The notes beneath the pieces are model-generated. The model was not told the DNA's origin and ran no database searches. It was given only the letters and a program-made list of their open reading frames with translations. The translations under genes were made by a program, and so were the position numbers. Below, in pieces: positions 1 through 31,073 of a DNA stretch of 64,000 nucleotides (position 1 is its first letter; each line of letters opens with the position of its first letter). The stretch is from Acidobacteriota bacterium (GTDB taxonomy: Bacteria; Acidobacteriota; Terriglobia; Bryobacterales; Bryobacteraceae): contig VFZU01000014.1 of the NCBI GenBank assembly GCA_016870995.1, forward strand, positions 4,815 to 68,814, in the 5' to 3' direction.

Positions 1-596
1 ATGTGAACTGCGAGGATCTTTGTGGTTGGGTGACGAAGCGCAATTGTTTCTAGACCGCTGGCGGGAGTAAACGGAGTATCGGCGCCGAAGTGAAAGGCAG
101 GGATGCCTCCCGCTGCGACGATGTGGTCGACAACGGCGATGACTTCTGGTGAATCGATGGGGTATCGATTTTGAGCGGGGTTCAGCTTGACGATCAGGAA
201 ATCGAATTTGTGAATGCACTGATCGACGATGCGGCGAGCGTTGTCGACACCGCAGGCCTTGGGGTCGGTCCAACCGGAGGCGATGAGGCGTCTTGGGTAG
301 GCCTTGGCGGATCGCCAGACGTAGGCATTGGCCTCGAGAAGCGCCTCGTAGTTGAATAGGGGATCTTCGGTGTATGTGGTTGCGGCAGGATTCTGCCAGG
401 TGTTGGCGAGAGTCACGTTCGCCCGGTCCATTTCGGAAATCAGATCTTCGGCTGAGAGCGAGCGGCCGTGGTAGTAGTGCGGTGTTTGGCGATGTGGATA
501 GCGAACAGTGTTTGTGATGTGTGTGTCGGCGTCAATGACAGAGCGGTTCTGATTTTGATCGAGAAACTCGAGGAGGCTAAGGACGTGAGGCTGCAT
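1..596 (-). CDS. Amidohydrolase_2-family metal-dependent hydrolase (runs off the left edge)
   Basis: Not in the ORF track because it has no stop in the window. Manual translation from ATG 596 is open to position 1: MQPHVLSLLEFLDQNQNRSVIDADTH...IVKLNPAQNRYPIDS...GIPAFHFGADTPFT...ILAVHM. The IDxDxH, KLNP and FHxG motifs fit the amidohydrolase TIM barrel. Confidence 0.8.
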   Translation of the reverse strand, partial: MQPHVLSLLEFLDQNQNRSVIDADTHITNTVRYPHRQTPHYYHGRSLSAEDLISEMDRANVTLANTWQNPAATTYTEDPLFNYEALLEANAYVWRSAKAYPRRLIASGWTDPKACGVDNARRIVDQCIHKFDFLIVKLNPAQNRYPIDSPEVIAVVDHIVAAGGIPAFHFGADTPFTPASGLETIALRHPTTKILAVH

Positions 597-654
597 CTGA
601 GTGAAATGGTATGCCAGCCGTTTCGTCCCAGGCTGGTAGTATCCGAAAGTTCCT

Positions 655-1734
655 ATGATCGAGATCCTCTTGTTTGCGTTGAGTTTTCAGGACGGTGGCT
701 TTGCCGCGCAGTGGGATTTGTGGAATCAGAAGGCTCTAGAAGCCTCTGCCGCAAAAAATAAAGGCAGATTGATTGAAGCACTGGAAGAGTTGAACCGGCT
801 TGCGCCTGGCAACGAACGGATGGTTCAAATGCTAGCCGCGGCAAAGGGGACAAAGCCAGGGACTTCATTCGTGAAGCCAGTGACAGCAGCCCGCCTTGAG
901 CAGAGAGTGGAGGGCCGCGATTGGATTGCGGAAGATCTGGTTTGGGATGGGCGTCGGTTTCTTGTGAGTAGCGTGCGGAAGGGCGTGATTCTGGCTGCGG
1001 ATGGAACGGTGTTCGCGAAGGTTGACGTAGGCGTATTTGGACTGGGGATTGACAGAAAACGTAAGTTGCTTTGGGCTGCGCTTGGATCCGTGCCGCAATG
1101 TAAAGAGTGCCGCCAAGGAAAAGAAGGTGCGCTGGCTGCATTCGATTTGAAGACGGGTCGCGAGGCGAAGAGGATCGTGGCTCCCATTGCAGAAGGGCTT
1201 GGTGATTTGACTGTGGGCCCAAAGGGCGATGTCTATGTGACCAGCAATGTTGGAGGCGCGCTGTTCCAATTGCGAGCTGGAGCAGATCGAATGGAGCGAC
1301 TGGATCGGGAGGGAGAATTACCATCTCCGCAAGGGCCAGCGCTGAGCGCGGATGGCAAATCGCTGTTCCTGGCAGACTATCGGCGTGGCATCGCGAAAGT
1401 TGATTTGGCAACGAAGCAATGGACTTGGTTGAAGCCAGCGCCCGGAGTGATCGTTAACGGTATCGATGGATTGTATGCGTTTCAAGGCGGATTCGTTGCA
1501 GTGCAGAATGGGGTTGCCAAACAGAGAATCACCTGGTTTTCGCAGAATCTGGAATCAGCAGGTGTGCTTGAATCCGGCTGGAATGGATTGGGAGAACCAA
1601 CACATGGAACCATCATTGGGAAGCGCTTTTGCTTTATCGCCAATAGCGGATGGGAGGCTTTTGATGAGAAGAGGGAGCGTAAGCCTGGCGTAGCGCCAGT
1701 GGAGTCTGTGATCTACTGCCGCCCAATGCCATAG
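655..1734 (+). CDS. Secreted SMP-30/gluconolactonase-like beta-propeller protein
   Basis: Signal peptide; repeated blades (AEDLVWDG, LGDLTVGPKGDVYVT, PQGPALSADGKSLFLAD, GIDGL, EPTHG). Confidence 0.65.
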   Translation: MIEILLFALSFQDGGFAAQWDLWNQKALEASAAKNKGRLIEALEELNRLAPGNERMVQMLAAAKGTKPGTSFVKPVTAARLEQRVEGRDWIAEDLVWDGRRFLVSSVRKGVILAADGTVFAKVDVGVFGLGIDRKRKLLWAALGSVPQCKECRQGKEGALAAFDLKTGREAKRIVAPIAEGLGDLTVGPKGDVYVTSNVGGALFQLRAGADRMERLDREGELPSPQGPALSADGKSLFLADYRRGIAKVDLATKQWTWLKPAPGVIVNGIDGLYAFQGGFVAVQNGVAKQRITWFSQNLESAGVLESGWNGLGEPTHGTIIGKRFCFIANSGWEAFDEKRERKPGVAPVESVIYCRPMP

Positions 1735-20725: not shown

Positions 20726-22288
20726 ATGCCAAGTGAAGTTTTTGATGTTGTTATCATTGGTTCCGGTGCTTGCGGCGGAACTTTGGCTGCGCACCTCGCT
20801 CGGGCAGGCGTCAATGTCTGCGTTGTAGAAGGTGGTCCGAAAATTGAGACGCGAACCGACTTCAACACACATGCGATGCCATACGAGTTTCCCAATCGCG
20901 GGATTCCCAAAATGCGGAATAACAAGCCGGGATTCGATACGGAACGCAGCCGAGGACTAGGCGGCAAATCGATGCTTTGGAACGCGGTGGCATGGAGATT
21001 CGGTCCGCGCGACTTTGAAGGCTACACACGCGACGGTGTTGGTTACGACTGGCCCATCAGCTACAAAGATCTTGCGCCCTATTACGATCGAATCGAACGG
21101 GAAGTTGGTGTTTGCGGGAATCTAGATGGCCTCGAAGATTTGCCTGATGGCTTCTTTCTACCGCCTGCGCCTATGAAGTGCTCCGACATTTTGATTCAGC
21201 GCGGCGCAGCCAAGCTCGGCAGGAAAGTGATCCACGTTCGCAAGGCGACACTAACCAGGCCGAAGTTTGGACGCCCGGCCTGCCACTATTGTGGAAACTG
21301 CATGGCAGGGTGTGACGTTGCCGCCAAATACAACTCATGGGATGGCCACATGCGCCCACTCATGAAGTCTGGCAAGATCACGCTGCAATTGGATAGCGTT
21401 GTCTTTGACATTCCCGTCAACGCCGAAAACAAGGTGACTGGCGTCAAGTTCGTCAATCGCACCACACTGGCTCAGGGTGAGGTGAAAGGCAAAGTGGTTG
21501 TTCTGGCAGCGGCCTGCGTGCAGAACGTGGCACTGCTATTGCAATCCAAATCGTCCCGCTATCCGAATGGGCTAGCCAACTCATCAGGCCGGGTTGGCAA
21601 AGACTTCATGCCGCATTTCACCGGCGGCGTGGAGGCCTTCCTGAAGCCGCTCATCGGAAAACAAATCACCAACGACGAAGGCTTTCTCGACCACGCCTAT
21701 CTGCCCAGCTTCATGCACACCCAGAAGCGGAACTATGCACGCAGTTGGGGAGCGCAATTCAACTATCAGAATCGACGCAGCGTCGGCTGGGCTAGAGCTC
21801 TGCCCGGAATGGGTGAGGCTTACAAGCAAGCCGTGAAAGACCGCTATCCAAGCTATTTCGTCTTCTCTCCCTATGGCGAGAAGACGCCTGACGAGAAGAG
21901 TTATGTCGATCTGGATCCCGGCAAGAAGGACAAGTTTGGATTGCCTGAAGTGCGGCGCTTCTTGTATTGGAATGAAAACGATATGAAGATTTTTCGAGAT
22001 ATGCAGCAGCAATCTCGGGCCATCCTCGAAGCCGCAGGGGCTGAGATTCATCGGGTCTATGAAGAGCCGCGACCGAATCATGAAATCGGCGGCACAATCA
22101 TGGGCAAGGATCCGCGGAAATCGGTGACCGACAGCTTTGGCCGAACCCATGACGTAAACAATCTCTACACGCTGGGCGGCAACATTTTGCCCTCCGCTTC
22201 GGAGAAGAACCCGACCCATACCTTTATGGCCGTGTCGGCCCGCACAGCCGAACATCTCATCGAACAACTGAAGAAAGGGAGCGTCTAG
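20726..22288 (+). CDS. GMC family flavoprotein oxidoreductase with a Cys-cluster motif
   Basis: IIGSGACGG, GGKSMLWNA, CHYCGNCMAGC, HEIGGTIMG, NPTHT. Confidence 0.92.
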   Translation: MPSEVFDVVIIGSGACGGTLAAHLARAGVNVCVVEGGPKIETRTDFNTHAMPYEFPNRGIPKMRNNKPGFDTERSRGLGGKSMLWNAVAWRFGPRDFEGYTRDGVGYDWPISYKDLAPYYDRIEREVGVCGNLDGLEDLPDGFFLPPAPMKCSDILIQRGAAKLGRKVIHVRKATLTRPKFGRPACHYCGNCMAGCDVAAKYNSWDGHMRPLMKSGKITLQLDSVVFDIPVNAENKVTGVKFVNRTTLAQGEVKGKVVVLAAACVQNVALLLQSKSSRYPNGLANSSGRVGKDFMPHFTGGVEAFLKPLIGKQITNDEGFLDHAYLPSFMHTQKRNYARSWGAQFNYQNRRSVGWARALPGMGEAYKQAVKDRYPSYFVFSPYGEKTPDEKSYVDLDPGKKDKFGLPEVRRFLYWNENDMKIFRDMQQQSRAILEAAGAEIHRVYEEPRPNHEIGGTIMGKDPRKSVTDSFGRTHDVNNLYTLGGNILPSASEKNPTHTFMAVSARTAEHLIEQLKKGSV

Positions 22289-22834
22289 ATGTCTGACAAC
22301 CACTACGACGACGGTCGACGCGAGACGATCAAGATCATCGGGGCGATCGGAATCCAGTGTGCTTTTCCATTTGCGGGTGACGAACTCTATGGGCAGCACC
22401 AGCATCCTGTTGCCTCTCGCGGCGCTGACCCCGGGCCACCCAAGTTCTTCAACCCTGACCAATTCGCGATTCTGAGCAAGATCAGCGATTTGATTGTTCC
22501 CGGTGCCGTGAAGGCGCAAGTGCCAAACTACATCGATCTTGTCGTGCGCAGCAATGACGGGCATCGCAAGACCTATACAGACGGGTTGGCCTGGCTAGCC
22601 GAAAAGAATTTTCTGAAGCTGACCGAAGCTGAGCAACTGGCCATCCTTGAGCCCATTTGCGTCGCAGTGGATCGTGGAGAAACCACAACGCTCGAACAGA
22701 AGTTCTTTCGCGCAGCAAAGAACATGACGGCAGACGGCTACTATACTTCCCGTGCCGGGCTTGTCGAAGACCTTGGATACCTGGGCAACCAGGTGCTTGC
22801 TGAATTTCCGGAGTGCAAACTAGATGAACACTAA
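22289..22834 (+). CDS. Gluconate 2-dehydrogenase subunit 3 family protein
   Basis: GRRETIK twin-arginine-like motif; FFNPDQF...IVPGA...VPNYID; GYYTS...LGYLGN; abuts the GMC gene. Confidence 0.85.
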   Translation: MSDNHYDDGRRETIKIIGAIGIQCAFPFAGDELYGQHQHPVASRGADPGPPKFFNPDQFAILSKISDLIVPGAVKAQVPNYIDLVVRSNDGHRKTYTDGLAWLAEKNFLKLTEAEQLAILEPICVAVDRGETTTLEQKFFRAAKNMTADGYYTSRAGLVEDLGYLGNQVLAEFPECKLDEH

Positions 22835-23951
22835 ATGGCTAACGCTTACCTTCGTTGTTGCTGCGTTGTTGCCAGGCGGTCGCCGCCCCGCAGACTTGAA
22901 TTTCAAGAAGACTATGCTCGATGGGGGTGCCGCTGAGACTGCCGCAATTGTAGACATCAATGGAGACGGCAAACCGGACATCGTAAGCGGCGAATATTGG
23001 TACGCTAACCCGACCTGGAAGAAAACTCAATTCCGCGAACTCAACTTCGAAAACAACTACATTGATGCCTTCTCAGACTTGCCTTTGGATGTAGATGGTG
23101 ATGGCAATATTGACATCATCACGGCTACGTATTTCCAAAAGAAACTCAGTTGGTACCGCAACCCGGGAAAGGGTGTCGGCAAATGGGTGGAATCGGTGAT
23201 CGACACCGCCGGGCCTGTGGAATTTGCATTTCTTGTTGATCTGGACAACGACGGCAAAGCCCATGAGATTTTGCCGCAGTACGGCGGAAAGACCGAGACC
23301 TGCTGGTATCGCTTCTCTAAAGGCAAGTGGGAAAAAGTCATCGCAAACTCCATGAATTTGGGCCATGGAATTGGCGCTGGGGACATCAACAAAGATGGGC
23401 GTACGGACATTCTGAGTCCTGCGGGCTGGCTGGAAGCACCGGCGAATCCGACGGACACAAACTGGAGACTCCACCGGGATTTCCCCACGCTGAAGGGATC
23501 GAGCTTCATGTATGTGTTCGACGTGAATGGTGATGGCCGCAATGACGTCGTCAGTGGCAATGCGCACGACTATGGTTTTTACTGGCTGGAGCAAAACGCA
23601 GGTGGCACTTTTGAGATGCGTATGATCGACGATTCCTGGTCGCAACCACACGCGATCACGATGGTCGACCTAAACAAAGATGGGCGTGCCGATTTTCTAA
23701 CGGGCAAGCGCTACATGGCTCACAATGGCAAAGACCCTGGCGAGCGCGAGCCGCTCGGCGTCTATTGGTTTGAATCCCACAAGGATTCCAACGGGAAATT
23801 GCAGTGGACCAAGCATGTCATCGACTACTCCACGCGCACCGGCGGAGGCATGCAGCTTCCGGTTGCAGACATCAATGGCGATGGACTGCTCGACATCGTG
23901 GCCCCGGGTAAGTCTGGGTTGTACCTGTTTACCGGTTCGCCTACTTTGTAA
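22824..23951 (+). CDS. Secreted FG-GAP/VCBS repeat protein
   Basis: Signal peptide; repeated DxNGDGxxD motifs (DINGDGKPD, DVDGDGNID, DLDNDG, DINKDGRTD, DVNGDGRND, DLNKDGRAD, DINGDGLLD). Confidence 0.9.
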   Translation: MNTKWLTLTFVVAALLPGGRRPADLNFKKTMLDGGAAETAAIVDINGDGKPDIVSGEYWYANPTWKKTQFRELNFENNYIDAFSDLPLDVDGDGNIDIITATYFQKKLSWYRNPGKGVGKWVESVIDTAGPVEFAFLVDLDNDGKAHEILPQYGGKTETCWYRFSKGKWEKVIANSMNLGHGIGAGDINKDGRTDILSPAGWLEAPANPTDTNWRLHRDFPTLKGSSFMYVFDVNGDGRNDVVSGNAHDYGFYWLEQNAGGTFEMRMIDDSWSQPHAITMVDLNKDGRADFLTGKRYMAHNGKDPGEREPLGVYWFESHKDSNGKLQWTKHVIDYSTRTGGGMQLPVADINGDGLLDIVAPGKSGLYLFTGSPTL

Positions 23952-24744
23952 TGCCGTGGCGCACTAGCCACTTTGCCAACAGATCTGCCCAGGAACTCAG
24001 AACCCAATCGCCGGGCGCGAGGCCAACGCCGTGTCGGCCATGCTCGAAGATGTGCATTTCTGCTTCAACGCCATTCTTACGCAATGCGGAGTAGTAGGCC
24101 AGGGCGTTCTCAACGGGCACACTGGCGTCATCTGTCGTATGGAATAAGAACGTGGGTGGCGTCTGGGAAGTCACCTGCTTTTCATTACTCAAGAACTCGG
24201 CCAGCTTCGGGTCTGGATTATCGCCGCCGAGGAGATTTCGGCAACTGCCCTTGTGCTTCCATTCTTCGGTGCAAGTGATCACGGGATAGCTGAGAATCGC
24301 AAAGTCAGGACGAGTTTCGGCGGTAAAGTGCGTGGAGATGGTGGAAGCCAGATGGCCACCGGCGCTAAAGCCCCAGACTCCGACGCGCTTCGCATCGACG
24401 CCCCATTCCCCTGTCCTGCGCCGTACGATTCGAAATGCTTCGCTGACATCATCGAGCATGGCAGGATGCTTGTGGCGAGGCCCCAAACGATACTTCAAGA
24501 CGAAAGCGTGGACCCCCATGGAGTTCAGCCATCGTGCAATTTGCACTCCCTCGTGGTCCATCGCCAACGCGCCATATCCACCCCCCGGACAAACGACCAC
24601 GGCGGAACCACTCGCTTTGGACTTTTCAGCCAGGTAGGGGGTTAACTCGGGACGATCCCGCTCGTCTTCGAAAACGCCCTTTGATGGATACAAAGGAACT
24701 GGCGTCTGAGCAAGGGTGAGAAAAAATACAATGCTGGTTAACAC
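23941..24744 (-). CDS. Secreted alpha/beta hydrolase (acetylxylan esterase/BD-FAE-like)
   Basis: CPGGGY, GFSAGGHL, LSYPVI, DASV, HGRHGVGL. Confidence 0.88.
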   Translation of the reverse strand: MLTSIVFFLTLAQTPVPLYPSKGVFEDERDRPELTPYLAEKSKASGSAVVVCPGGGYGALAMDHEGVQIARWLNSMGVHAFVLKYRLGPRHKHPAMLDDVSEAFRIVRRRTGEWGVDAKRVGVWGFSAGGHLASTISTHFTAETRPDFAILSYPVITCTEEWKHKGSCRNLLGGDNPDPKLAEFLSNEKQVTSQTPPTFLFHTTDDASVPVENALAYYSALRKNGVEAEMHIFEHGRHGVGLAPGDWVLSSWADLLAKWLVRHGITK

Positions 24745-24756
24745 TTTTCCAAGCTA

Positions 24757-25248
24757 GTGCATCGAGTAGTCTTAAGGCAACTGGTGAATCACGCCGAATT
24801 TGAAGTTCACTACAACCGCTACAGCCGCTACGTTCACGCCATCCTCATGACCCGGATGCCGCCAGCGAACGTTGAAGATGCACTACAAGAAGTTTTTATG
24901 GAAGCCTGGCGCAAGCTGCACGAACTGCGCGAAGATGCGAACTTTGGCCCGTGGGTAGCGGCAATTGCCCGCCATAAAACGGCAGACTTTTTCCGGCGCA
25001 AGCGTCCACTTGAACCTTTGCTGGACGTGCATGCAGCGCGATCGATCGAGCCTGACCCGATTCTCGACGCGCTGCAAAAGCTGCCAGAGGCATATCGGGA
25101 AACACTGGCCCTGCGCTTCATCGAAGGCATGACCGGCCCCGAGATTGCTGAAATGACGGGCCTTACTCATAGAAGTGTTCGTGTGAACCTGAACCGAGGA
25201 TTGGCGCTTTTGCGAGAGATGTTAGGAGTACAGATCGATGTCCGATAA
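24757..25248 (+). CDS. ECF sigma-70 factor
   Basis: EDALQEVFMEAW (region 2), WVAAIARH, LQKLPEAYRETLALRFIEGMTGPEIAEM (region 4). Confidence 0.9.
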   Translation: MHRVVLRQLVNHAEFEVHYNRYSRYVHAILMTRMPPANVEDALQEVFMEAWRKLHELREDANFGPWVAAIARHKTADFFRRKRPLEPLLDVHAARSIEPDPILDALQKLPEAYRETLALRFIEGMTGPEIAEMTGLTHRSVRVNLNRGLALLREMLGVQIDVR

Positions 25249-26062
25249 CTACCTGTGGGATCGCACCAGAACACCGGATCCGGAGTTGGTGAGATTGGAG
25301 CAACAGCTTGGAAAGTATAAATTCCAGCCCGCACCGCGAAAACGAAGCTTCCCTGTCTGGATCCCTCTGGCCCTGGCCGCCTCGATTGCGGCACTGACAA
25401 TTTGGCAGCTTCGGCCGCAACCCCTCTCGAACTGGACAATTGCCGATCAACCCATCGCGCTGAACAAGACCATCCACATTGATAGGGAGACTCTGGTGCA
25501 TGTGGCCTCCATCGGGCGATTGCGATTTGCGCCCGGAGCAAAGTTCAAGGTGACTCGATCAGAACCAGGCCATCAACACATGGACCTGCTTGAAGGCAAA
25601 TTCGACGCCCTTATCATTGCGGCTCCGCATGTGTTTCAAGTCAACACGCTCCCGGCAAAGCTGGATGATCTTGGTTGCGCGTTTGAAGTGAGCGTCAATC
25701 AAGCCGGCTCGGGCAGGGTCGCCGTCACATCGGGATGGCTTCATGTGAATGCCAAAGGTGAGGAATCGTTGGTCCGGCAAGGCTACGAGGTTACGCTCGC
25801 AAAGGGCAAACCTTCTTCGATACCCAGACGTGTGGAACAACACGACGATAATGACCCGCTCACTTTCCTGCAACAACTGTGGAGAGCCCCGACACCGCTT
25901 GATCGCGCCAAGGCTTTCGACCAACTGGCAAGCCAATTTCCACCTCCGCCTGGTGTCACAAGGCAGCGGGCGCTGAACGGAGATCGAAGCATTGTGAAGG
26001 ATTACTGGCCAGTGCTCGATCTGGGCCCGAATATTTCGCTGCCCAGTGTATTCTTGGACTGA
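25238..26062 (+). CDS. FecR-domain anti-sigma factor
   Basis: Overlaps the sigma gene; YLWD N-terminus, one TM helix, FecR-like region with DLGCAFEV and VAVTSGWL. Confidence 0.75.
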   Translation: MSDNYLWDRTRTPDPELVRLEQQLGKYKFQPAPRKRSFPVWIPLALAASIAALTIWQLRPQPLSNWTIADQPIALNKTIHIDRETLVHVASIGRLRFAPGAKFKVTRSEPGHQHMDLLEGKFDALIIAAPHVFQVNTLPAKLDDLGCAFEVSVNQAGSGRVAVTSGWLHVNAKGEESLVRQGYEVTLAKGKPSSIPRRVEQHDDNDPLTFLQQLWRAPTPLDRAKAFDQLASQFPPPPGVTRQRALNGDRSIVKDYWPVLDLGPNISLPSVFLD

Positions 26063-27270
26063 TGAATCGCCGCCAACTCCTGGGCCTGCTCGCCGCCACT
26101 TCGTTGAACAGCCAGCGTCCAAGCATCCGCCGCATCACGCAAGCACCAGGATTTCACTGGTTTGGATACTACGACAAGCTGCAGTTTGATCCAACAGGAC
26201 GCTTTGTTCTCGGCCAAAGAGTCGATTTCGAACATCGGTCCCCCAAGGCTGATGACGAAATCCGAATCGGTGTGATCGACACGCAATCGGCTGACAAGTG
26301 GACCGAAGTCGGCCGAACCCGCGCATGGAACTGGCAGCAAGGGTCGATGCTGCAGTGGTTACCGCAATCGAAGTCGAAGTTCCTTTGGAATGATCGGGCC
26401 GGCAACCAGTTTGTCTGCCGCATCCATGATTTGAAGAGTGGTAAGACCGAGACCATCCCGGCCCCGATCTACACATTGAGCCCGGATGGCAAATCAGCGG
26501 TCGCCCCTGACTTCAGACGACTCAACGACTGCAGGCCCGGTTATGGCTACGCCGGCATCGACGATCCCAATCGAGACAATCCAGTTCCTGGCGATGCGGG
26601 AATCTGGCACATCGATATGCGCAACGGCAAACGAAAGCTGCTCATTCCGTTTTCGCAGGCGGTGGCCGTTGCCAATCGAGAACCCTATTCCAAGGGAGCC
26701 AAACACTGGTTCAACCACCTGCTCTATTCACCCGACTCTAAGCGCTTCATTTTTCTGCATCGCTGGCGCGGTGAGAAAGAAGGTAAGGGCTTCTCGACAA
26801 GGATGTTCACAGCCGACGCGCAGGGCAAGAACCTTTACAACCTCGATCCCTACGGGAAGACATCTCACTTCATTTGGAGGGACACGCAGCATGTCCTTGC
26901 TTGGGCCTGGCACCCTTCCGTCGGCAAAGACAAGTTTTACCTCTACAAGGACCAGACTGAGCACGTCGAGGTCGTCGGTCCTGACGTAATGACCGTCAAC
27001 GGCCATTGCGCGTATCTGCCAGGCAACCGCTGGATCCTGAACGATACCTATCCGGACAAGGATCGCCTGCAGCACCTCTATATCTACGAAGTTTCCTCCG
27101 GCAAGCAAGTACCCATTGCAGACCTGCTCTCACCGCCTGAATACGTTGGTGAATGGCGCACAGACCTTCACCCGCGCTTCTCTCCCGACGGCAAGCAGAT
27201 TTGTATTGATTCGACTCACGAGAAATTGGGTCGGCAAATGTATCTGATCGACATTAGCTCCATGGTTTGA
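26062..27270 (+). CDS. Tat-exported oligogalacturonate-lyase-like/TolB-like beta-propeller
   Basis: MNRRQLLGLL; HWFGYYD, WNWQQG, FNHLLYSPD, GHCAY, DLHPRFSPDG. Confidence 0.65.
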   Translation: MNRRQLLGLLAATSLNSQRPSIRRITQAPGFHWFGYYDKLQFDPTGRFVLGQRVDFEHRSPKADDEIRIGVIDTQSADKWTEVGRTRAWNWQQGSMLQWLPQSKSKFLWNDRAGNQFVCRIHDLKSGKTETIPAPIYTLSPDGKSAVAPDFRRLNDCRPGYGYAGIDDPNRDNPVPGDAGIWHIDMRNGKRKLLIPFSQAVAVANREPYSKGAKHWFNHLLYSPDSKRFIFLHRWRGEKEGKGFSTRMFTADAQGKNLYNLDPYGKTSHFIWRDTQHVLAWAWHPSVGKDKFYLYKDQTEHVEVVGPDVMTVNGHCAYLPGNRWILNDTYPDKDRLQHLYIYEVSSGKQVPIADLLSPPEYVGEWRTDLHPRFSPDGKQICIDSTHEKLGRQMYLIDISSMV

Positions 27271-28393
27271 CGCGAAGGTCTTTGTACTCGATCCAACTGC
27301 CCTTTTGATGGGCCTGGATTAATAGCGTTCCTGACGTCAGACGGTCGAGCTTCTCACAATCCACCACCGTTTCGCCGTTGATGCGCACCACACAACGTTT
27401 GCCCTTGACGAACAGCTGAAATAAGAACCACTCTTCTGGTTTCACCTTCGGATATGGCTTCGCACGTTCCAACCCATAAAGAGACCCGGTTGGGTACACC
27501 GCTCCTGCTACATCGTGAATCTGTATCTCATAGCGAGGCTCTGTCGCCTCCTTGCCACCACGAAAGAGGATGCCACCGTTGGAATGCCGACTCGCTCGTA
27601 CATAACATTCAAAGGCAAAATCCTGATAGGTCTTCTTTGAGACTAGATACCCTAAGCCATCCGCTCGTAAGACCTCGCCCAAAGTCTCCCAGCTGGCGGC
27701 TTCGGTCGGGAACCACTGATTCATATCGCCAGGTGCCTGGTATAACCTCTCCCATTTTTCTTTCGACGCGAGCCGTGTGATAAGGAAATTACGATACCGC
27801 AGCGGATAGCTCAAGCTCTCAATCCCAATGAACCCTCGCCGCAGCCGGTGCTTGAGCTCTTCATGCTGATCCAGATTGAGCCGTTGAACTTGCTCTCCGT
27901 TCCACCACACTTCAAGCGTGGGCCAATCCATGCGGATCCGGAATTGGTTCCATTCTGCTTTGCCCTTTACGGTTACTTTCGATGGGGCAACCACGGGAAA
28001 AATCGCTCCAACACTTTCCTTTAGTGGTGGCGCATCTGCTTTGTGAAAGATGTTCAGCTTGAATCCGCATTCCGTTGCAGGGCCATGCTTCGGGGCTCCA
28101 AAGTAGAGCCCGCCGTTTGCCCACGCCTTCAGAAACACCTCTCCCGACCAATCGAAATTTTCGTATTCTTCTTCGCTACGCAGCCAGCAAGGAAAATTCG
28201 TTCCAGGATGAACGACTACATCTCCGTTTTCAACGAAGAATGCGGTTTCAGGTCCCTGTTCAATCGTCCAGCCCCGTAGTGTTTTGCCATCAAAAAGTTG
28301 TTTTTCTTGCGCCTGAAGCGATGTCGTCATCCCGCTTGCAATTACAATGAATTGACGGCGAGTCTTCTCCCCAGAACTGACAGTCGATCTCAT
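27254..28393 (-). CDS. Tandem DUF1080 (3-keto-disaccharide hydrolase-like) protein
   Basis: TRRQFIV signal; LFDGKTLRGW, EYENF, two copies of the NGG/EWN/G.I pattern, IQAH...IEYKD. Confidence 0.85.
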   Translation of the reverse strand: MRSTVSSGEKTRRQFIVIASGMTTSLQAQEKQLFDGKTLRGWTIEQGPETAFFVENGDVVVHPGTNFPCWLRSEEEYENFDWSGEVFLKAWANGGLYFGAPKHGPATECGFKLNIFHKADAPPLKESVGAIFPVVAPSKVTVKGKAEWNQFRIRMDWPTLEVWWNGEQVQRLNLDQHEELKHRLRRGFIGIESLSYPLRYRNFLITRLASKEKWERLYQAPGDMNQWFPTEAASWETLGEVLRADGLGYLVSKKTYQDFAFECYVRASRHSNGGILFRGGKEATEPRYEIQIHDVAGAVYPTGSLYGLERAKPYPKVKPEEWFLFQLFVKGKRCVVRINGETVVDCEKLDRLTSGTLLIQAHQKGSWIEYKDLRVKPWS

Positions 28394-28401
28394 GATTAGC
28401 G

Positions 28402-28407
28402 ATTCTA
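28402..28407 (-). promoter_or_regulatory. -10 element (TAGAAT), likely leaderless promoter
   Basis: 8 nt before ATG 28393 on the minus strand. Confidence 0.55.
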
Positions 28408-28422
28408 CACAAACCGGACCCC

Positions 28423-30108
28423 GTGGAACCTGTAATTCAACATTTACACACGTACTTCCTGTTCTCCTTTGCGGTGGACCGGGGAGAAGTGTTGAAACAC
28501 CACGGCAATGTCTGGCAGGGTCGCTACTGGATTGACGGTCTTGATGACTGGATCAATGCCCACCACGTTCAAGACTCTCCCATAATTGCCAACATTGGCC
28601 GCTGGCAGCGCGCTTCCTATACGCAGTTCGATCTCGAATCGCCCGCGTATCAGGACATGATCTTCTTCCACCCCTTTGTCCGGCGCATCTTTTTCGACAC
28701 TGCCGGTGTCGGCGCATCCGACAACGAAGTCGAAGCTCTCTTGCGCTGCTATCAAATCCCGCTTTCGCAAGAAAACAAGCTGTTCTTCATGGCAGAAGAT
28801 CTGCGCGAACGAGAGGCTGAGCTCGAAGTCACAGACCTGCGTCTTTTCCTGTTTGCCAACGGCATTGGAATTCTCGCCATCGGCGTGGAAGCTTTCGACA
28901 TGCCGGTCTCCAAGGCACTTTGGGTTAACGAGATGATGCGCAAGGTCTACCCAAGCTCTGGCCGTCAGTTGCGAGAAGGCCGCTCACCTTCTCGCGTTAC
29001 GCTTTCTGTCGAAACGCCCTATGGCCGAACGCAAGTCGTCGAATCGACCTTCGAAGACAGCGCCATGATTGGTTTCCTTCCGCCGGTTTCCAGCCTGATT
29101 ACTTCGCTGTTGTACTTCGCGGATTACCGGCGCGATGAGTATGAGCCGGTTCTCGACGAGCGCACCATCGTTTATTCCTATATGGCGCTCGACCCTGAGA
29201 GCGTACCGGAGAACTTTCACAAGACTGAGGATTACGACATCCTCTTCTCGCGTGCTCTTTATGTCGACCATAGCGGCGAAGACTATCGCTACGCCCGCGG
29301 CTTCACCAAACGGCTGATGGAGCAACAGGTTTATCGCCGCTGGGCTCATCAGGGCACTCTTTACGGCTTCACCAGCTACTCGAATGTCACGATGTGCTTC
29401 GGCACCTTCGACTGCGACGACCATCAACTCAGCGAAGGCTTTCTCATCCATCGCATGTTCGACTCGCGGTATTACCTGATGGCAATCATCGCGCTGTTTT
29501 ACCGCGCTACGCTGCTTGACTTCTCTGAGCGCGTCGCACTCGTGTCGCGCCGACTCTATGTCGACTTTCAGGACGCCCAGCTGTCCGATCTCAACATCGA
29601 GCGAACCAACTTGCTGCGGTATGAGTTCCTCGTTTTTTCGAACTACTGGCACTTCGACGAACTGGCCAACAAGGACGAAGAGTCGGAGCACTTCCGCATG
29701 CTCAGCACCGTGTACGACATCACTCCGATGAAGGTCGAAGTCGAGCGCGAAATCGACAAGCTCAATAGCAGCCTGCATGAGTATTACGCAGCGCGCAATA
29801 CGCAAGCCGTGAACCGTTTGGCATTTGTGTCGACCATCCTTGGTGCTGGTGCCGTCGTTACTGGCTTTTTCGGCATGAACTTTGGCAGCCACTTCGGGAA
29901 GTTGCTGTTTAACCCCAACCCCGAATCACCTTGGTTTCACTGGCTGTCCATCATCAGCGTGGCCCTGTTCTGCATGTTCGCGCTTGGAATTACCTTCTAC
30001 ATGCTGAGCCGGAACTGGAAAGACTACCGCAGCGTGTTGCGCGACGGTCAGGAAATTGCGCCTGGCGTCTCCCGCAACTCTGCAGTCCGTAAGAACGGCA
30101 AGTCATAG
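28423..30108 (+). CDS. Large CorA-superfamily membrane protein resembling CRISPR-associated CorA effectors
   Basis: About 470 aa soluble region followed by two TM helices with the CorA GMN signature (TGFFGMNF); internal motifs FFHPFV, LFANGIGIL, MRKVYP, PVLDER, YRRW...LYG. Confidence 0.8.
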   Translation: MEPVIQHLHTYFLFSFAVDRGEVLKHHGNVWQGRYWIDGLDDWINAHHVQDSPIIANIGRWQRASYTQFDLESPAYQDMIFFHPFVRRIFFDTAGVGASDNEVEALLRCYQIPLSQENKLFFMAEDLREREAELEVTDLRLFLFANGIGILAIGVEAFDMPVSKALWVNEMMRKVYPSSGRQLREGRSPSRVTLSVETPYGRTQVVESTFEDSAMIGFLPPVSSLITSLLYFADYRRDEYEPVLDERTIVYSYMALDPESVPENFHKTEDYDILFSRALYVDHSGEDYRYARGFTKRLMEQQVYRRWAHQGTLYGFTSYSNVTMCFGTFDCDDHQLSEGFLIHRMFDSRYYLMAIIALFYRATLLDFSERVALVSRRLYVDFQDAQLSDLNIERTNLLRYEFLVFSNYWHFDELANKDEESEHFRMLSTVYDITPMKVEVEREIDKLNSSLHEYYAARNTQAVNRLAFVSTILGAGAVVTGFFGMNFGSHFGKLLFNPNPESPWFHWLSIISVALFCMFALGITFYMLSRNWKDYRSVLRDGQEIAPGVSRNSAVRKNGKS

Positions 30109-31073
30109 ATCCTTCTCCAAGCCTGCCCAAACGGTCTTTCCCAAGCCAGATGCACGGTGACCCCAATGGCTACGCAGAGCAGAGTAGTCAAAATCGCGTA
30201 CGGCATTCCATGCACGCGCTCAACATACATACCCGCATACACCAACCCAATCTGTTGGCAAATGTAGATCGGATAGGAGGCATCTCCCAGGAACACCAGC
30301 AATTTCGGCATTTGAGCTGACCTCCAGGACGGAAGGACCGTACCTGCGACCACCAGCAGCGCAGGCAGCGCATATCGCTCTACACGCCATTGGTGATTCC
30401 CAAACGCAGCCTCCCAGTTAAAGCTCGGCCCAAAGGACGCACCTTGCCAGGAGAGCCAGGTCCACCAACCTAATCCCCCCAACAGCATCAGCGCACCCAA
30501 CCAACGCGGAGCAACCACCACTTTCGCCGCCTCCCCGATCGCACAACCACCAGCAAACAACAAAAGAAGTGGCCACTGATACAAACCCATTGCCAACATC
30601 ACCAGACATCCCCAGATTCCAATGCGCCTGAAGCCGAACAAAAGCAACACCGCCGTCGCCGAATAGAACCACATCTCATAAACGAGCGTCCATCCATGGA
30701 TCAAAACGGGGCCGCCGGGCTGGCGCAGAAAGACCATGCTTCGCCAAACCTGTTCGAGGGTGGGTTGATGGCCAGCTTGCGTCTTCCACTGATACTCGAT
30801 CAAAGACACCGCGTAGTAGAGCGGCACAATCTTCCAGACTCGCTTCAGCAGAAACCGGAATGGACTTGTCTCTCGCTCAGCAACGGTAGAAACAATGAAC
30901 CCACTGATCACGAAAAACACATCGACGCCAAAGATCATGCTCTTACGCCAGCTTTCGTTCTGGCACAACCAGCAGGGGTCCTTGTGCAAGGTTAAGGCGT
31001 AAAACGTGTGGTAAAAAACCACCGCTATCGCCGCCAAGGCGCGGAGCACCTGGAGTCCTTCAAGCCGCTGCAT
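30048..31073 (-). CDS. Acyltransferase family 3 (OafA-like) membrane protein
   Basis: LEGLQVLRALAAIAVVFYH, GVDVFFVISGF, FLLKRVWKIVPLY, WTLVYEMWFY, LGDASYPIY. Confidence 0.92.
   Translation of the reverse strand: MQRLEGLQVLRALAAIAVVFYHTFYALTLHKDPCWLCQNESWRKSMIFGVDVFFVISGFIVSTVAERETSPFRFLLKRVWKIVPLYYAVSLIEYQWKTQAGHQPTLEQVWRSMVFLRQPGGPVLIHGWTLVYEMWFYSATAVLLLFGFRRIGIWGCLVMLAMGLYQWPLLLLFAGGCAIGEAAKVVVAPRWLGALMLLGGLGWWTWLSWQGASFGPSFNWEAAFGNHQWRVERYALPALLVVAGTVLPSWRSAQMPKLLVFLGDASYPIYICQQIGLVYAGMYVERVHGMPYAILTTLLCVAIGVTVHLAWERPFGQAWRRIYDLPFLRTAELRETPGAIS

What the first reader, a model, noticed from the sequence alone, without database searches (positions are those of the whole stretch)
28423..30108. 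Stand-alone homolog of the CRISPR-associated CorA second-messenger effector, with no cas genes in the window
Seen: a 561-aa protein with a large soluble N-terminus, two C-terminal TM helices and the CorA GMN motif (TGFFGMNF). It is much longer than a canonical CorA Mg2+ channel. Its motif order (HTYFLFSF; YQDMIFFHPFVRRIFFD; LRLFLFANGIGIL; NEMMRKVYP; EPVLDERT; RALYVD; YRRWAHQGTLYGFTSYS; YYLMAIIALFYRATLLDFS; FSNYWHFDEL; EREIDKL; VVTGFFGMN) matches, as I recall it, the CorA effector of type III CRISPR systems such as Bacteroides fragilis Cmr, which binds the second messenger SAM-AMP. A basic pair (RK in MRKVYP) and an acidic pair (DE in PVLDER) sit where I recall the ligand-implicated RR and DD. 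Its neighbours are a DUF1080 gene and an acyltransferase; I see no cas10, NrN/DEDD nuclease, SAM lyase or array in 64 kb. Codon usage looks native. Inference: a ligand-gated membrane effector either activated in trans by a distant type III locus or another nucleotide synthase, or serving a non-CRISPR function. Either would be an undescribed context.
Basis: partly seen in the sequence, partly recalled or inferred. Interest (0 to 1): 0.8.

Follow-up and report, generated by a model that had tools for sequence, protein, structure and literature searches.

The report
Stand-alone CRISPR-type CorA channel gene
This gene encodes a membrane channel of the kind that type III CRISPR systems use as an alarm-triggered weapon, but in the Bryobacteraceae it survives as a well-conserved lone chromosomal gene, even in genomes whose only CRISPR signal-making enzyme is dead or absent, so it has probably taken on a job outside CRISPR.

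Summary
Window 28423-30108 (+) encodes a 561-aa protein with a large soluble N-terminus, two C-terminal TM helices and GMN. The 64-kb window has no cas genes or array.

It is homologous to CRISPR-associated CorA. PADLOC CorA-like gives E 6e-57 over nearly the full length. It is 26% identical over 430-530 aa to proteins inside type III loci. The family-wide Arg and Asp-x-Arg columns are kept, as RK and DER. All 6 sampled relatives outside the family lie beside type III cassettes.

The window's clade is confined to one family, Bryobacteraceae. It occurs in 41/121 genera, single-copy, never next to cas genes, and under strong purifying selection.

The genome does carry a type III-A-like csm cassette on another contig, with no array, and that cassette is present in about 92% of the family's genera. 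In this genus its Cas10 cyclase motifs are destroyed. Presence of the CorA-like gene is unrelated to csm presence, to cyclase integrity or to canonical CorA.

Best reading: an exapted, probably ligand-gated CorA-fold channel that no longer depends on Cas10 here. Its ligand is unknown. This is a new variant of a known kind. The family-wide array-less csm module is a notable by-product.

The parts
28423..30108 (+). CorA-like gene (561 aa), a stand-alone member of the CRISPR-associated CorA superfamily
   Evidence: ORF. PADLOC CorA-like PDLC01174 gives E 5.9e-57 over aa 68-523, and PDLC01043 gives 3.7e-52. BLASTP gives 26% identity, E 7e-39 and 4e-38, to CRISPR-embedded P0181 and P0273.
28423..29469 (+). 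N-terminal soluble (putative sensor) domain, aa 1-349, mixed alpha/beta
   Evidence: AF2 secondary structure, with most blocks at pLDDT 70-90. Many residues are invariant across 38 orthologs. The domain aligns to the N-terminal domain of CRISPR-linked CorA proteins.
28939..28944 (+). R173-K174, at the superfamily's conserved basic pair position
   Evidence: R173 is invariant in all 89 aligned superfamily members. The second position is R in 56/78 distant relatives and K in this clade. Chi et al. (PMC10600005) showed that R152A/R153A abolishes B. fragilis CorA function. Equivalence of the positions is inferred.
29155..29163 (+). D245-E246-R247, at the superfamily's conserved DDR position
   Evidence: D245 and R247 are at least 90% conserved. 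The motif is DDR in 69/78 distant relatives and DER in this clade and 5 others. D219A/D220A abolishes B. fragilis CorA function (PMC10600005). Equivalence is inferred.
29470..29817 (+). Long stalk helices (aa 350-465) leading into the membrane, CorA-like
   Evidence: Pfam CorA match covers aa 352-520. AF2 helices lie at 350-383, 389-408, 418-430 and 433-496. Foldseek hits are all to canonical CorA channels.
29818..29883 (+). TM helix 1 (aa 466-487), ending in the GMN motif (aa 484-486, nt 29872-29880)
   Evidence: The sequence is LAFVSTILGAGAVVTGFFGMNF. T480-F487 is invariant in 38 orthologs. GMN is kept in 42/78 distant relatives.
29941..30006 (+). TM helix 2 (aa 507-528)
   Evidence: Hydrophobic stretch WLSIISVALFCMFALGITFYML. 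AF2 helix at 503-530.
27254..28393 (-). Divergent neighbour: secreted 3-keto-disaccharide hydrolase/DUF1080 protein. Its start codon is 29 bp from the CorA-like start codon.
   Evidence: Pfam PF06439, E 2e-50. The same divergent pairing occurs in B. aggregatus and in two more distant genera (loci L019, L022, L024) but not in L021 or L023. No functional link is shown.
30048..31073 (-). Convergent neighbour: Acyl_transf_3 membrane acyltransferase. Its 3' end overlaps the CorA-like 3' end by 61 nt.
   Evidence: Pfam PF01757, E 2e-23. The same arrangement is seen in B. aggregatus. It is not conserved in other genera.

Best explanation
The gene is a domesticated descendant of the type III CRISPR ancillary effector CorA. 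An ancestor of the Bryobacteraceae probably acquired a CorA-cas10-csm locus of III-A type. The CorA gene then separated from the cas genes and has been kept, single-copy and under strong purifying selection, in about a third of the family's genera.

The protein keeps both halves of the effector. One half is the N-terminal sensor domain, with the superfamily's conserved pocket residues (R173, D245, R247 and about 15 more). The other half is a CorA-type two-helix pore with an intact GMN filter. It therefore most likely still works as a ligand-gated, probably pentameric, cation channel: a small molecule binding the cytoplasmic domain opens the pore.

In this genome the trigger cannot be the resident type III module, because its Cas10 has lost both cyclase motifs. 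The channel must respond to something else, such as another nucleotide-type ligand or a metabolite, or act as a regulated divalent-cation channel.

Shown: homology, architecture, conservation, distribution, lack of cas linkage, and the dead cyclase motifs. Inferred: oligomeric state, gating by a ligand, the identity of the ligand, and the physiological role.
For: Homology:
- PADLOC CRISPR CorA-like models give E 5.9e-57 and 3.7e-52 over nearly the full length.
- The family profile finds 1098 relatives at E<=1e-10.
- All 6 sampled relatives outside the family lie next to type III cassettes.
- BLASTP identity is 26% over 430-530 aa.
- In the tree the clade has 100% support and groups with P0146 at 97%. 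P0146 is followed by a Csm1-type Cas10 and Csm2.

Pocket and pore:
- R173 is invariant in 89/89 sequences, D245 and R247 are at least 90% conserved, and GMN is invariant within the clade.

Stand-alone and vertically inherited:
- The gene is in 41/121 family genera and single-copy.
- It is absent from 173 genomes of other families in the class.
- Its neighbours are ordinary metabolic genes, and it is never on the same stretch as the csm cassette.
- Synteny with B. aggregatus is conserved.
- Its dN of 0.11 is as low as that of a neighbouring enolase-family enzyme.

Independence from Cas10:
- This genome and its congener have MTVAVDALE and DSGIEGF where 14 other genera have LRGDVDNFG and YSGGDDF.
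- Cyclase motifs are altered in 8/38 CorA-like-positive and 6/26 CorA-like-negative genomes.
- G119 (98% complete) has the gene but no Csm3 or Cas10 of any kind, and G215 lacks the Cas10-like gene.
Against: - No biochemical data exist for this clade. Ligand gating is extrapolated from B. fragilis and III-D2 CorA (PMC10600005, PMC13294483).
- The AF2 model is only moderate (pLDDT 70), and no CRISPR-CorA structure is available to confirm the pocket.
- Most CorA-like-positive genomes (30/38) do have an apparently active Cas10 elsewhere, so a trans link in those genera is not excluded.
- The gene is lost repeatedly, even within genera, which is more typical of accessory or defence genes than of core physiology.
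- No candidate alternative ligand synthase or ligand-degrading enzyme was identified.
Confidence: 0.5

Rival explanations
1. It is a trans-encoded effector of the family's own array-less csm module. In this reading the conserved Cas10-Csm2-5 complex senses RNA and makes a nucleotide signal that opens the distant CorA-like channel. In Bryobacter, where the cyclase is dead, the gene would be a recent relic or be fed by another source.
For: - The CorA-like gene and the csm cassette are both confined to the same family.
- The closest outside relative of the CorA-like protein is encoded immediately upstream of a Csm1-type Cas10 and Csm2.
- That Cas10 scores 58 bits against the family's Cas10-like profile, whereas the large subunits beside other CorA clades score about 0.
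- 30/38 CorA-like-positive genomes keep intact GDxD and GGDD motifs.
- The csm cassette has no effector gene of its own within 8-10 kb.
Against: - The gene is never adjacent to the cassette in 38 genomes. In the complete genome G012 they are 4.8 Mb apart.
- Only about 35% of csm-positive genomes have the gene: 39/41 CorA-like-positive and 74/80 CorA-like-negative genomes carry Csm3, so there is no association.
- Cyclase erosion is equally frequent with and without the gene.
- The gene stays under strong purifying selection (dN 0.11, 84% aa identity) in the two species with a dead cyclase, and it persists in G119 and G215 without the module.
- No SAM-AMP-degrading partner lies nearby, although the literature describes such a partner as obligatory for III-B CorA (PMC10600005).
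Confidence: 0.25
2. It is simply this lineage's Mg2+/Co2+ uptake channel: a divergent CorA whose large N-terminal domain senses intracellular cations as in canonical CorA, with no nucleotide ligand.
For: - GMN and the flanking TGFFGMNF are invariant in the clade.
- This genome and B. aggregatus have no canonical CorA.
- The only PDB fold matches are CorA Mg2+ channels.
- A CRISPR VI-B-associated CorA of this superfamily transports Zn2+, Ni2+ and Cd2+ in liposomes without an added ligand (PMC11662929).
- Genomic contexts are housekeeping.
Against: - TIGR00383 corA scores 14.8 bits against a cut-off of 200.75.
- The N-terminal domain is homologous to the CRISPR sensor domain and keeps that domain's conserved pocket residues.
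- There is no complementary distribution with canonical CorA: both genes are present in 8 genomes against 9.5 expected, and 60/121 genomes have neither.
- The fold match to CorA is weak (TM 0.2-0.3).
Confidence: 0.15
3. It is the effector of a different, unrecognised defence or signalling system, for example a non-Cas10 nucleotide synthase encoded elsewhere, and acts as a suicide pore during phage infection.
For: - The distribution is patchy, with within-genus presence and absence.
- CorA overexpression is toxic in E. coli (PMC10600005, PMC12255297).
- Earlier notes of this scan report other orphan CorA-like genes. These are leads only.
Against: - There is no conserved partner gene and no defence genes nearby.
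- Sequence conservation is unusually high for a defence effector (57-60% across genera, against about 40% for Cas10-like).
- The gene stands alone as a monocistronic unit between ordinary chromosomal genes, in the same place as in B. aggregatus.
Confidence: 0.07

Closest known systems
Type III-B CRISPR-associated CorA (clade CorA-1; Bacteroides fragilis CorA, SAM-AMP-binding; Chi et al. 2023, PMC10600005)
   Same: Same superfamily and architecture: a unique soluble N-terminal domain plus a CorA-like two-TM C-terminus. The conserved basic pair and acidic pair columns are kept (RK/DER here, RR/DDR typically). PADLOC CorA-like models match nearly the full length. A III-B-linked member (P0234, beside Cmr2-Cmr6) falls in the same alignment and tree.
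   Different: It belongs to a different deep clade of the tree. It is not encoded in a CRISPR locus and has no adjacent NrN, DEDD or SAM-AMP lyase. It is vertically inherited within one bacterial family. Its ligand is untested.
Type III-D2 CRISPR-associated CorA (Gammaproteobacteria HyVt-522; SAM-AMP/SAM-AMP2; PMC13294483)
   Same: The 35-member sister group of the window's clade is encoded beside ~500-aa 'WGGDE' large subunits and multi-RAMP genes, an arrangement that looks III-D2-like. That subtype assignment is my inference. Identity to the window protein is 26%.
   Different: Those proteins are locus-embedded. Many carry an extra ~300-aa N-terminal extension, and several lack GMN. The window's protein is stand-alone and keeps GMN.
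CorA linked to III-A/Csm-type loci (third CorA cluster; Actinomyces clade with Csm6-2, proposed cA6-activated; Hoikkala et al. 2024, PMC11229360)
   Same: The nearest outside relative (P0146) is followed by a Csm1-type Cas10 and Csm2. Known SAM-AMP-degrading enzymes are absent beside the window's gene, which recalls the clade for which a non-SAM-AMP ligand was proposed.
   Different: I did not establish whether P0146 and the window clade belong to the published Actinomyces clade. No Csm6-2 was seen.
Type VI-B1/RT-Cas1-associated CorA (PMC11662929)
   Same: It is another case of this CorA family functioning away from Cas10. It was shown to transport divalent cations without an added ligand.
   Different: It is still CRISPR-locus-encoded (beside cas13b) and derives from clade CorA-1. 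It occurs in gut Bacteroidota rather than as a conserved chromosomal gene.
Canonical CorA Mg2+/Co2+ channel (T. maritima, M. jannaschii; PF01544/TIGR00383)
   Same: Two C-terminal TM helices, a GMN motif and long stalk helices. These channels are the only fold matches in the PDB.
   Different: It has about 200 extra residues. The N-terminal domain is not recognisably CorA by sequence (TIGR00383 scores 14.8 bits against a cut-off of 200.75). It has no MPEL loop motif.

Membership tests
CRISPR-associated CorA (type III ancillary effector superfamily) | Soluble N-terminal domain homologous to the unique domain of CRISPR CorA | tested here: met
   PADLOC PDLC01174 aligns aa 68-523 to model positions 42-437 of 446, E 5.9e-57. 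BLASTP to CRISPR-embedded P0181 and P0273 covers aa 51-534 and 76-467.
CRISPR-associated CorA (type III ancillary effector superfamily) | C-terminal CorA-like two-helix transmembrane domain | tested here: met
   Pfam CorA matches aa 352-520 at 33.5 bits, above the cut-off of 27. AF2 helices and Foldseek hits to CorA channels agree.
CRISPR-associated CorA (type III ancillary effector superfamily) | Conserved basic pair and acidic pair at the interdomain pocket (B. fragilis R152/R153, D219/D220) | tested here: met
   R173 is invariant in 89/89 sequences, and D245 and R247 are at least 90% conserved. This protein has RK and DER, conservative variants of RR and DDR.
CRISPR-associated CorA (type III ancillary effector superfamily) | Encoded within or beside a type III cas gene cassette | tested here: not met
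   There are no cas genes in the 64-kb window. No ortholog context shows cas genes. The csm cassette lies on another contig, and in G012 it is 4.8 Mb away.
CRISPR-associated CorA (type III ancillary effector superfamily) | Adjacent or fused signal-degrading enzyme (NrN, DEDD or SAM-AMP lyase) | tested here: not met
   The neighbours are DUF1080 and an acyltransferase. No DHH, DEDD or lyase domain appears among the flanking genes of five ortholog loci. The rest of the genome was not searched for these enzymes.
CRISPR-associated CorA (type III ancillary effector superfamily) | Binds and is activated by a Cas10-made messenger (SAM-AMP) | not testable with these tools
   This needs ligand-binding and in vivo assays. 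The only Cas10 in this genome has lost its GDxD and GGDD motifs.
Canonical CorA Mg2+/Co2+ transporter (TIGR00383 / PF01544) | Full-length match to the CorA family model above its curated cut-off | tested here: not met
   TIGR00383 scores 14.8 bits against a cut-off of 200.75. Pfam covers only the last ~170 residues.
Canonical CorA Mg2+/Co2+ transporter (TIGR00383 / PF01544) | GMN selectivity motif at the end of TM1 | tested here: met
   G484-M485-N486 is invariant in 38 orthologs.
Canonical CorA Mg2+/Co2+ transporter (TIGR00383 / PF01544) | CorA-type alpha/beta/alpha cytoplasmic funnel domain with divalent-cation sensing sites | tested here: inconclusive
   Foldseek aligns the model to T. maritima and M. 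jannaschii CorA only weakly (best E 7.5e-4, TM 0.2-0.3, rmsd 13-17 A). Profile searches of PDB sequences find no CorA.
Canonical CorA Mg2+/Co2+ transporter (TIGR00383 / PF01544) | Homopentameric channel that conducts Mg2+ | not testable with these tools
   No multimer modelling or transport assay was available.

The most novel reading that the evidence does not exclude
The CorA-like gene and the array-less cas10-csm2-5 operon may be two surviving halves of one ancestral CorA-type III-A locus. In this reading the Bryobacteraceae have domesticated that locus into a CRISPR-array-independent signalling pathway. The Csm complex would be guided by something other than a CRISPR array, or by the type II array or an endogenous RNA. 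It would sense RNA and, through a Cas10-made nucleotide, open a conserved membrane channel in the genera that keep both parts. In lineages such as Bryobacter the channel would since have been rewired to a different input. This would be the first type III effector complex plus ancillary effector fixed as near-core genes of a whole bacterial family.
Probability: 0.2. Interest if true: 0.9.

Novelty: new variant of a known kind. Interest (0 to 1): 0.62.

Why it matters
CRISPR CorA is the only known receptor class for the SAM-AMP messenger. Its structure and gating mechanism are unsolved, and the literature describes it as obligately tied to type III loci and to a signal-degrading partner.

A clade that has shed both ties shows that the sensor-pore module can be exapted. 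This clade keeps the pocket and the pore, is highly conserved, and occurs in a cultured organism (Bryobacter aggregatus). It offers a stable, well-aligned target for structural work on the sensor domain. It also poses a direct question: which ligand opens the channel when no Cas10 cyclase is present?

The by-product could matter more. An HD-less, array-less csm operon is present in about 92% of the genera of one family. CRISPR-Cas normally does not distribute this way, so the pattern suggests a domesticated type III complex with a host function.

Tried and rejected
1. Sequence searches of the PDB with the protein and with a 38-sequence profile found nothing relevant. No CRISPR-CorA structure is available, so the pocket could not be checked in 3D.
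2. Foldseek against the PDB gave only weak canonical CorA matches. This does not discriminate between the readings.
3. I tested for complementary distribution with canonical CorA, which would have favoured a housekeeping Mg2+ channel. None was found: 8 genomes have both, against 9.5 expected.
4. I tested for association with the csm module or with cyclase integrity, which would have favoured a trans effector. None was found.
5. I looked for an array, cas6 or effector genes beside the csm cassette in three genomes and found none.
6. I asked whether the family's Cas10-like protein resembles SAM-AMP synthases. Its profile hits only III-A Csm1 structures, so this was uninformative about the product.
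7. A search for RNA-seq runs found only lake metagenome DNA runs, so there is no expression evidence.
8. The sigma-70 promoter scan found nothing around the gene. One terminator-like hit lies inside the coding region and was disregarded.
9. dN/dS could not be used because dS is saturated (1.4-2.6 or undefined). Only the dN comparison is used.
10. My first script for the Cas10 motifs picked the wrong ORFs. I replaced it with an HMM-guided extraction.
Full report
**Observation.** The ORF at 28423-30108 (+) starts with GTG and encodes 561 aa. Pfam CorA matches only aa 352-520 (33.5 bits). The canonical corA equivalog TIGR00383 scores 14.8 bits against a cut-off of 200.75. The last ~100 residues form two hydrophobic helices (about 466-487 and 507-528), with GMN at 484-486. 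The flanking genes are a divergent DUF1080/3-keto-disaccharide hydrolase gene and a convergent Acyl_transf_3 gene.

**Homology to the CRISPR effector.** PADLOC's two CRISPR 'CorA-like' models match almost the whole protein (E 5.9e-57 and 3.7e-52; aa 68-523 on model positions 42-437 of 446). These models also ring on ordinary CorA in control genomes, so I tested the link directly.

A profile of 38 orthologs (A1) was searched against 1.84 billion representative proteins. It found 2158 relatives at E<=1e-3 and 1098 at E<=1e-10. I looked up the genomic context of six relatives from outside the window's own clade, and all six lie immediately beside type III cassettes:
- Cas6-CorA-large subunit-4 RAMPs-Cas2-RT-Cas1 (P0271)
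- CorA-large subunit-4 RAMPs (P0181, P0273, P0158)
- CorA-Csm1-type Cas10-Csm2 (P0146)
- CorA-Cmr1-like-Cmr2-Cmr3-Cmr4-Cmr5-Cmr6 (P0234)

Pairwise BLASTP of the window protein against two of these gives 26% identity over 430-530 residues (E 7e-39 and 4e-38). The match includes the N-terminal domain.

In an 89-sequence alignment the Arg aligned with R173 is invariant. D245 and R247 are at least 90% conserved. The distant relatives read RR in 56/78 and DDR in 69/78, whereas the window's clade reads RK and DER. Chi et al. showed that R152A/R153A and D219A/D220A abolish B. fragilis CorA function (PMC10600005). I infer that these are the same two pairs, but I could not align the B. fragilis sequence itself.

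The PDB holds no CRISPR-CorA structure. Sequence and profile searches find nothing. The AF2 model (pLDDT 70.4, pTM 0.62) matches only canonical CorA channels, and weakly (best E 7.5e-4, TM 0.2-0.3).

**Where the protein sits in the superfamily.** In a maximum-likelihood tree the window's clade has 100% support and groups with P0146 at 97%. This pair is sister to a 35-member group holding the four proteins whose loci have ~500-aa 'WGGDE' large subunits. Those loci look III-D2-like; that subtype assignment is my inference. A separate 42-member clade (99%) holds the III-B-linked P0234. This layout resembles the three CorA clusters described in the literature (PMC10600005, PMC11229360). Every sampled neighbour lineage is CRISPR-linked and spans many taxa, while the window's clade is confined to one family. 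The stand-alone state is therefore most parsimoniously derived. The tree is only midpoint-rooted, so this direction is inferred.

**Distribution and context of the window's clade.**
- Orthologs are 84% identical in Bryobacter aggregatus and 47-60% identical across Bryobacteraceae.
- Among one genome per genus of the family, 41 of 121 have the gene. It is single-copy in all but one genome, which shows a second, fragmentary hit.
- In a 201-genome sample of the class, all 11 hits fall in this family and none in 173 genomes of other families. Presence varies within genera.
- In five ortholog loci the neighbours are ordinary chromosomal genes and never cas genes. The divergent DUF1080 gene recurs in four loci, counting the window.
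- The window itself encodes aconitase, G6PD, tRNA synthetases and similar genes. The PADLOC families listed for the window (25 of 35 shown) are kinase-type models, each hitting a single ORF.
- Between this genome and B. aggregatus, the gene's dN is 0.110. That is as low as the neighbouring enolase-family enzyme (0.100) and lower than the other neighbours (0.158-0.243). dS is saturated.

**The rest of the genome.** The assembly (5.72 Mb, 215 contigs, 99% complete) has one CorA-like copy and no Cmr2.

Contig C128 carries cas10-like (457 aa, no HD domain), csm2, csm3, csm4 and csm5. The contig has no array and no cas6.

The only assembled array has 12 repeats of 37 nt. It is split between the ends of C129 and C154 and belongs to a type II-C Cas9-Cas1-Cas2 locus.

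Unexpectedly, the csm cassette is nearly universal in the family:
- Csm3 is in 113/121 genera, and in 92/95 high-quality genomes.
- Cas10-like is in 111/121 genera and always lies on the same contig within ~1-2 kb of the Csm3 hit.
- In the class-level sample Cas10-like is in 25 of 28 family genomes, with a single hit outside the family.
- In three genomes, two of them complete, no array, cas6, cas1/2 or CARF gene lies within 8-10 kb, and the flanks differ.

The Cas10-like profile matches both palm domains of solved III-A Csm1 proteins (best E 2.8e-16).

**Is the channel fed by that module?** Several results argue against it.
- In 14 other genera Cas10-like keeps LRGDVDNFG and YSGGDDF. In this genome and B. 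aggregatus the same columns read MTVAVDALE and DSG(I/L)EGF, with a ~15-residue deletion. The resident Cas10 therefore almost certainly cannot make a nucleotide signal, yet the CorA-like gene is intact and constrained.
- Across the family, cyclase motifs are altered in 8/38 CorA-like-positive and 6/26 CorA-like-negative genomes.
- Csm3 is present in 39/41 positive and 74/80 negative genomes.
- The two genes are never adjacent, and in the complete genome G012 they are 4.8 Mb apart.
- G119 (98% complete, 4 contigs) has the CorA-like gene but no Csm3, Cas10-like or Cas10 palm domain. G215 also lacks the Cas10-like gene.

On the other side, both genes are family-specific. The sister CorA's partner Cas10 scores 58 bits on the family's Cas10-like profile, whereas the other CorA-adjacent large subunits score about 0. 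This fits joint acquisition of a CorA-csm locus by the family's ancestor and leaves a trans link possible in genera with an active cyclase.

**Is it just a Mg2+ channel?** GMN is invariant in the clade. This genome has no canonical CorA. A VI-B-associated member of the superfamily transports divalent cations (PMC11662929). However, canonical CorA (28/121 genomes) overlaps with the CorA-like gene in 8 genomes against 9.5 expected, and 60 genomes have neither. There is thus no sign of functional replacement, and the conserved sensor-pocket residues argue for retained ligand control.

**Conclusion.** The most likely account (about 0.5) is an exapted, family-restricted descendant of a type III CorA effector. 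It would still work as a ligand-gated CorA-fold channel but no longer depends on Cas10 in this genome, and its ligand is unknown.

The rival readings are:
- a trans link to the family-wide csm module (0.25)
- an ordinary cation channel (0.15)
- an effector of an unrecognised system (0.07)

No paper in the searched library describes conserved non-CRISPR members of this family or the family-wide array-less csm operon. I rate it a new variant of a known kind, with interest 0.62. The csm by-product deserves its own follow-up.

Noticed in passing
G000:C128:1441-6459 (locus L004), outside the window; orthologous cassettes in L056, L057, L058: A five-gene cas10-like/csm2/csm3/csm4/csm5 operon has an HD-less ~480-aa Cas10 and no CRISPR array, cas6, cas1/2 or CARF gene nearby. 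It is present in about 92% of genera of the family (Csm3 113/121, Cas10-like 111/121) and essentially absent from the rest of the class. Most genera keep GGDD, but several lineages, including this genus, have lost it. It looks like a vertically inherited, domesticated type III-A-derived module, and I found no description of it in the searched literature.
   Followed up: partly
G000:C154:4612-8929 and C154:8980-9016; G000:C129:11876-12653 (loci L006, L005): A type II-C locus (Cas9 1028 aa, Cas1, Cas2) with a CRISPR array of at least 13 repeats of 37 nt (GCTTTGGATGGCCTGGAATCCGCTTCTTGATAGACTC) and 29-30-nt spacers. The array is split across two contig ends and is the only array assembled in the genome.
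   Followed up: partly
G000:C129:6428-10270 (minus strand, locus L005): A 1280-aa DpdF-like helicase (PADLOC DpdF, 1583 bits) lies about 1.6 kb from the CRISPR array, which suggests a small defence island around the type II locus.
   Followed up: no
Ends of about 30 contigs of G000 (e.g. C13, C19, C30, C49, C56): The same ~80-nt sequence (…GGCTGGAGGGGGAAGCACCCGATGGCCTGGAAAGAGACTTGTGTGATCGAGC…) terminates many contigs. This indicates a high-copy IS-like element that fragments the assembly.
   Followed up: no
G000:C128:~520-1420 (minus strand), just downstream of csm5: An AAA_22-type ATPase gene follows csm5. In this genome it carries an in-frame stop (…ALNQ*LIQQ…), whereas in B. aggregatus it is an intact 293-aa ORF (L058:5515-6396). 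The adjacency is not conserved in G012.
   Followed up: partly
window 28391-28425 and 30048-30108: The start codons of the DUF1080 gene and the CorA-like gene are only 29 bp apart, which could mean a leaderless or internally promoted transcript. The CorA-like 3' end overlaps the convergent acyltransferase gene by 61 nt. Both features recur in B. aggregatus.
   Followed up: partly
window ~22000-26000: Cumulative GC skew peaks here: the skew is positive before about 24 kb and negative after it. This is compatible with a replication origin or terminus, or a strand-bias switch. An earlier first-reader note on this window says the same.
   Followed up: no
L049:12736-14187, L051:11575-13077, L052:11675-13216, L053:12425-13954: The ~500-aa genes immediately downstream of CRISPR-linked CorA genes have no Pfam hit but carry a 'WGGDE' motif. 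They are probably the divergent HD-less Cas10 of III-D2-like systems that current Pfam models miss.
   Followed up: partly
L056:7783-8184 (G012 csm4): Five tandem copies of an 81-nt unit lie inside the csm4 gene of a complete Bryobacteraceae genome and lengthen Csm4 to 505 aa.
   Followed up: no
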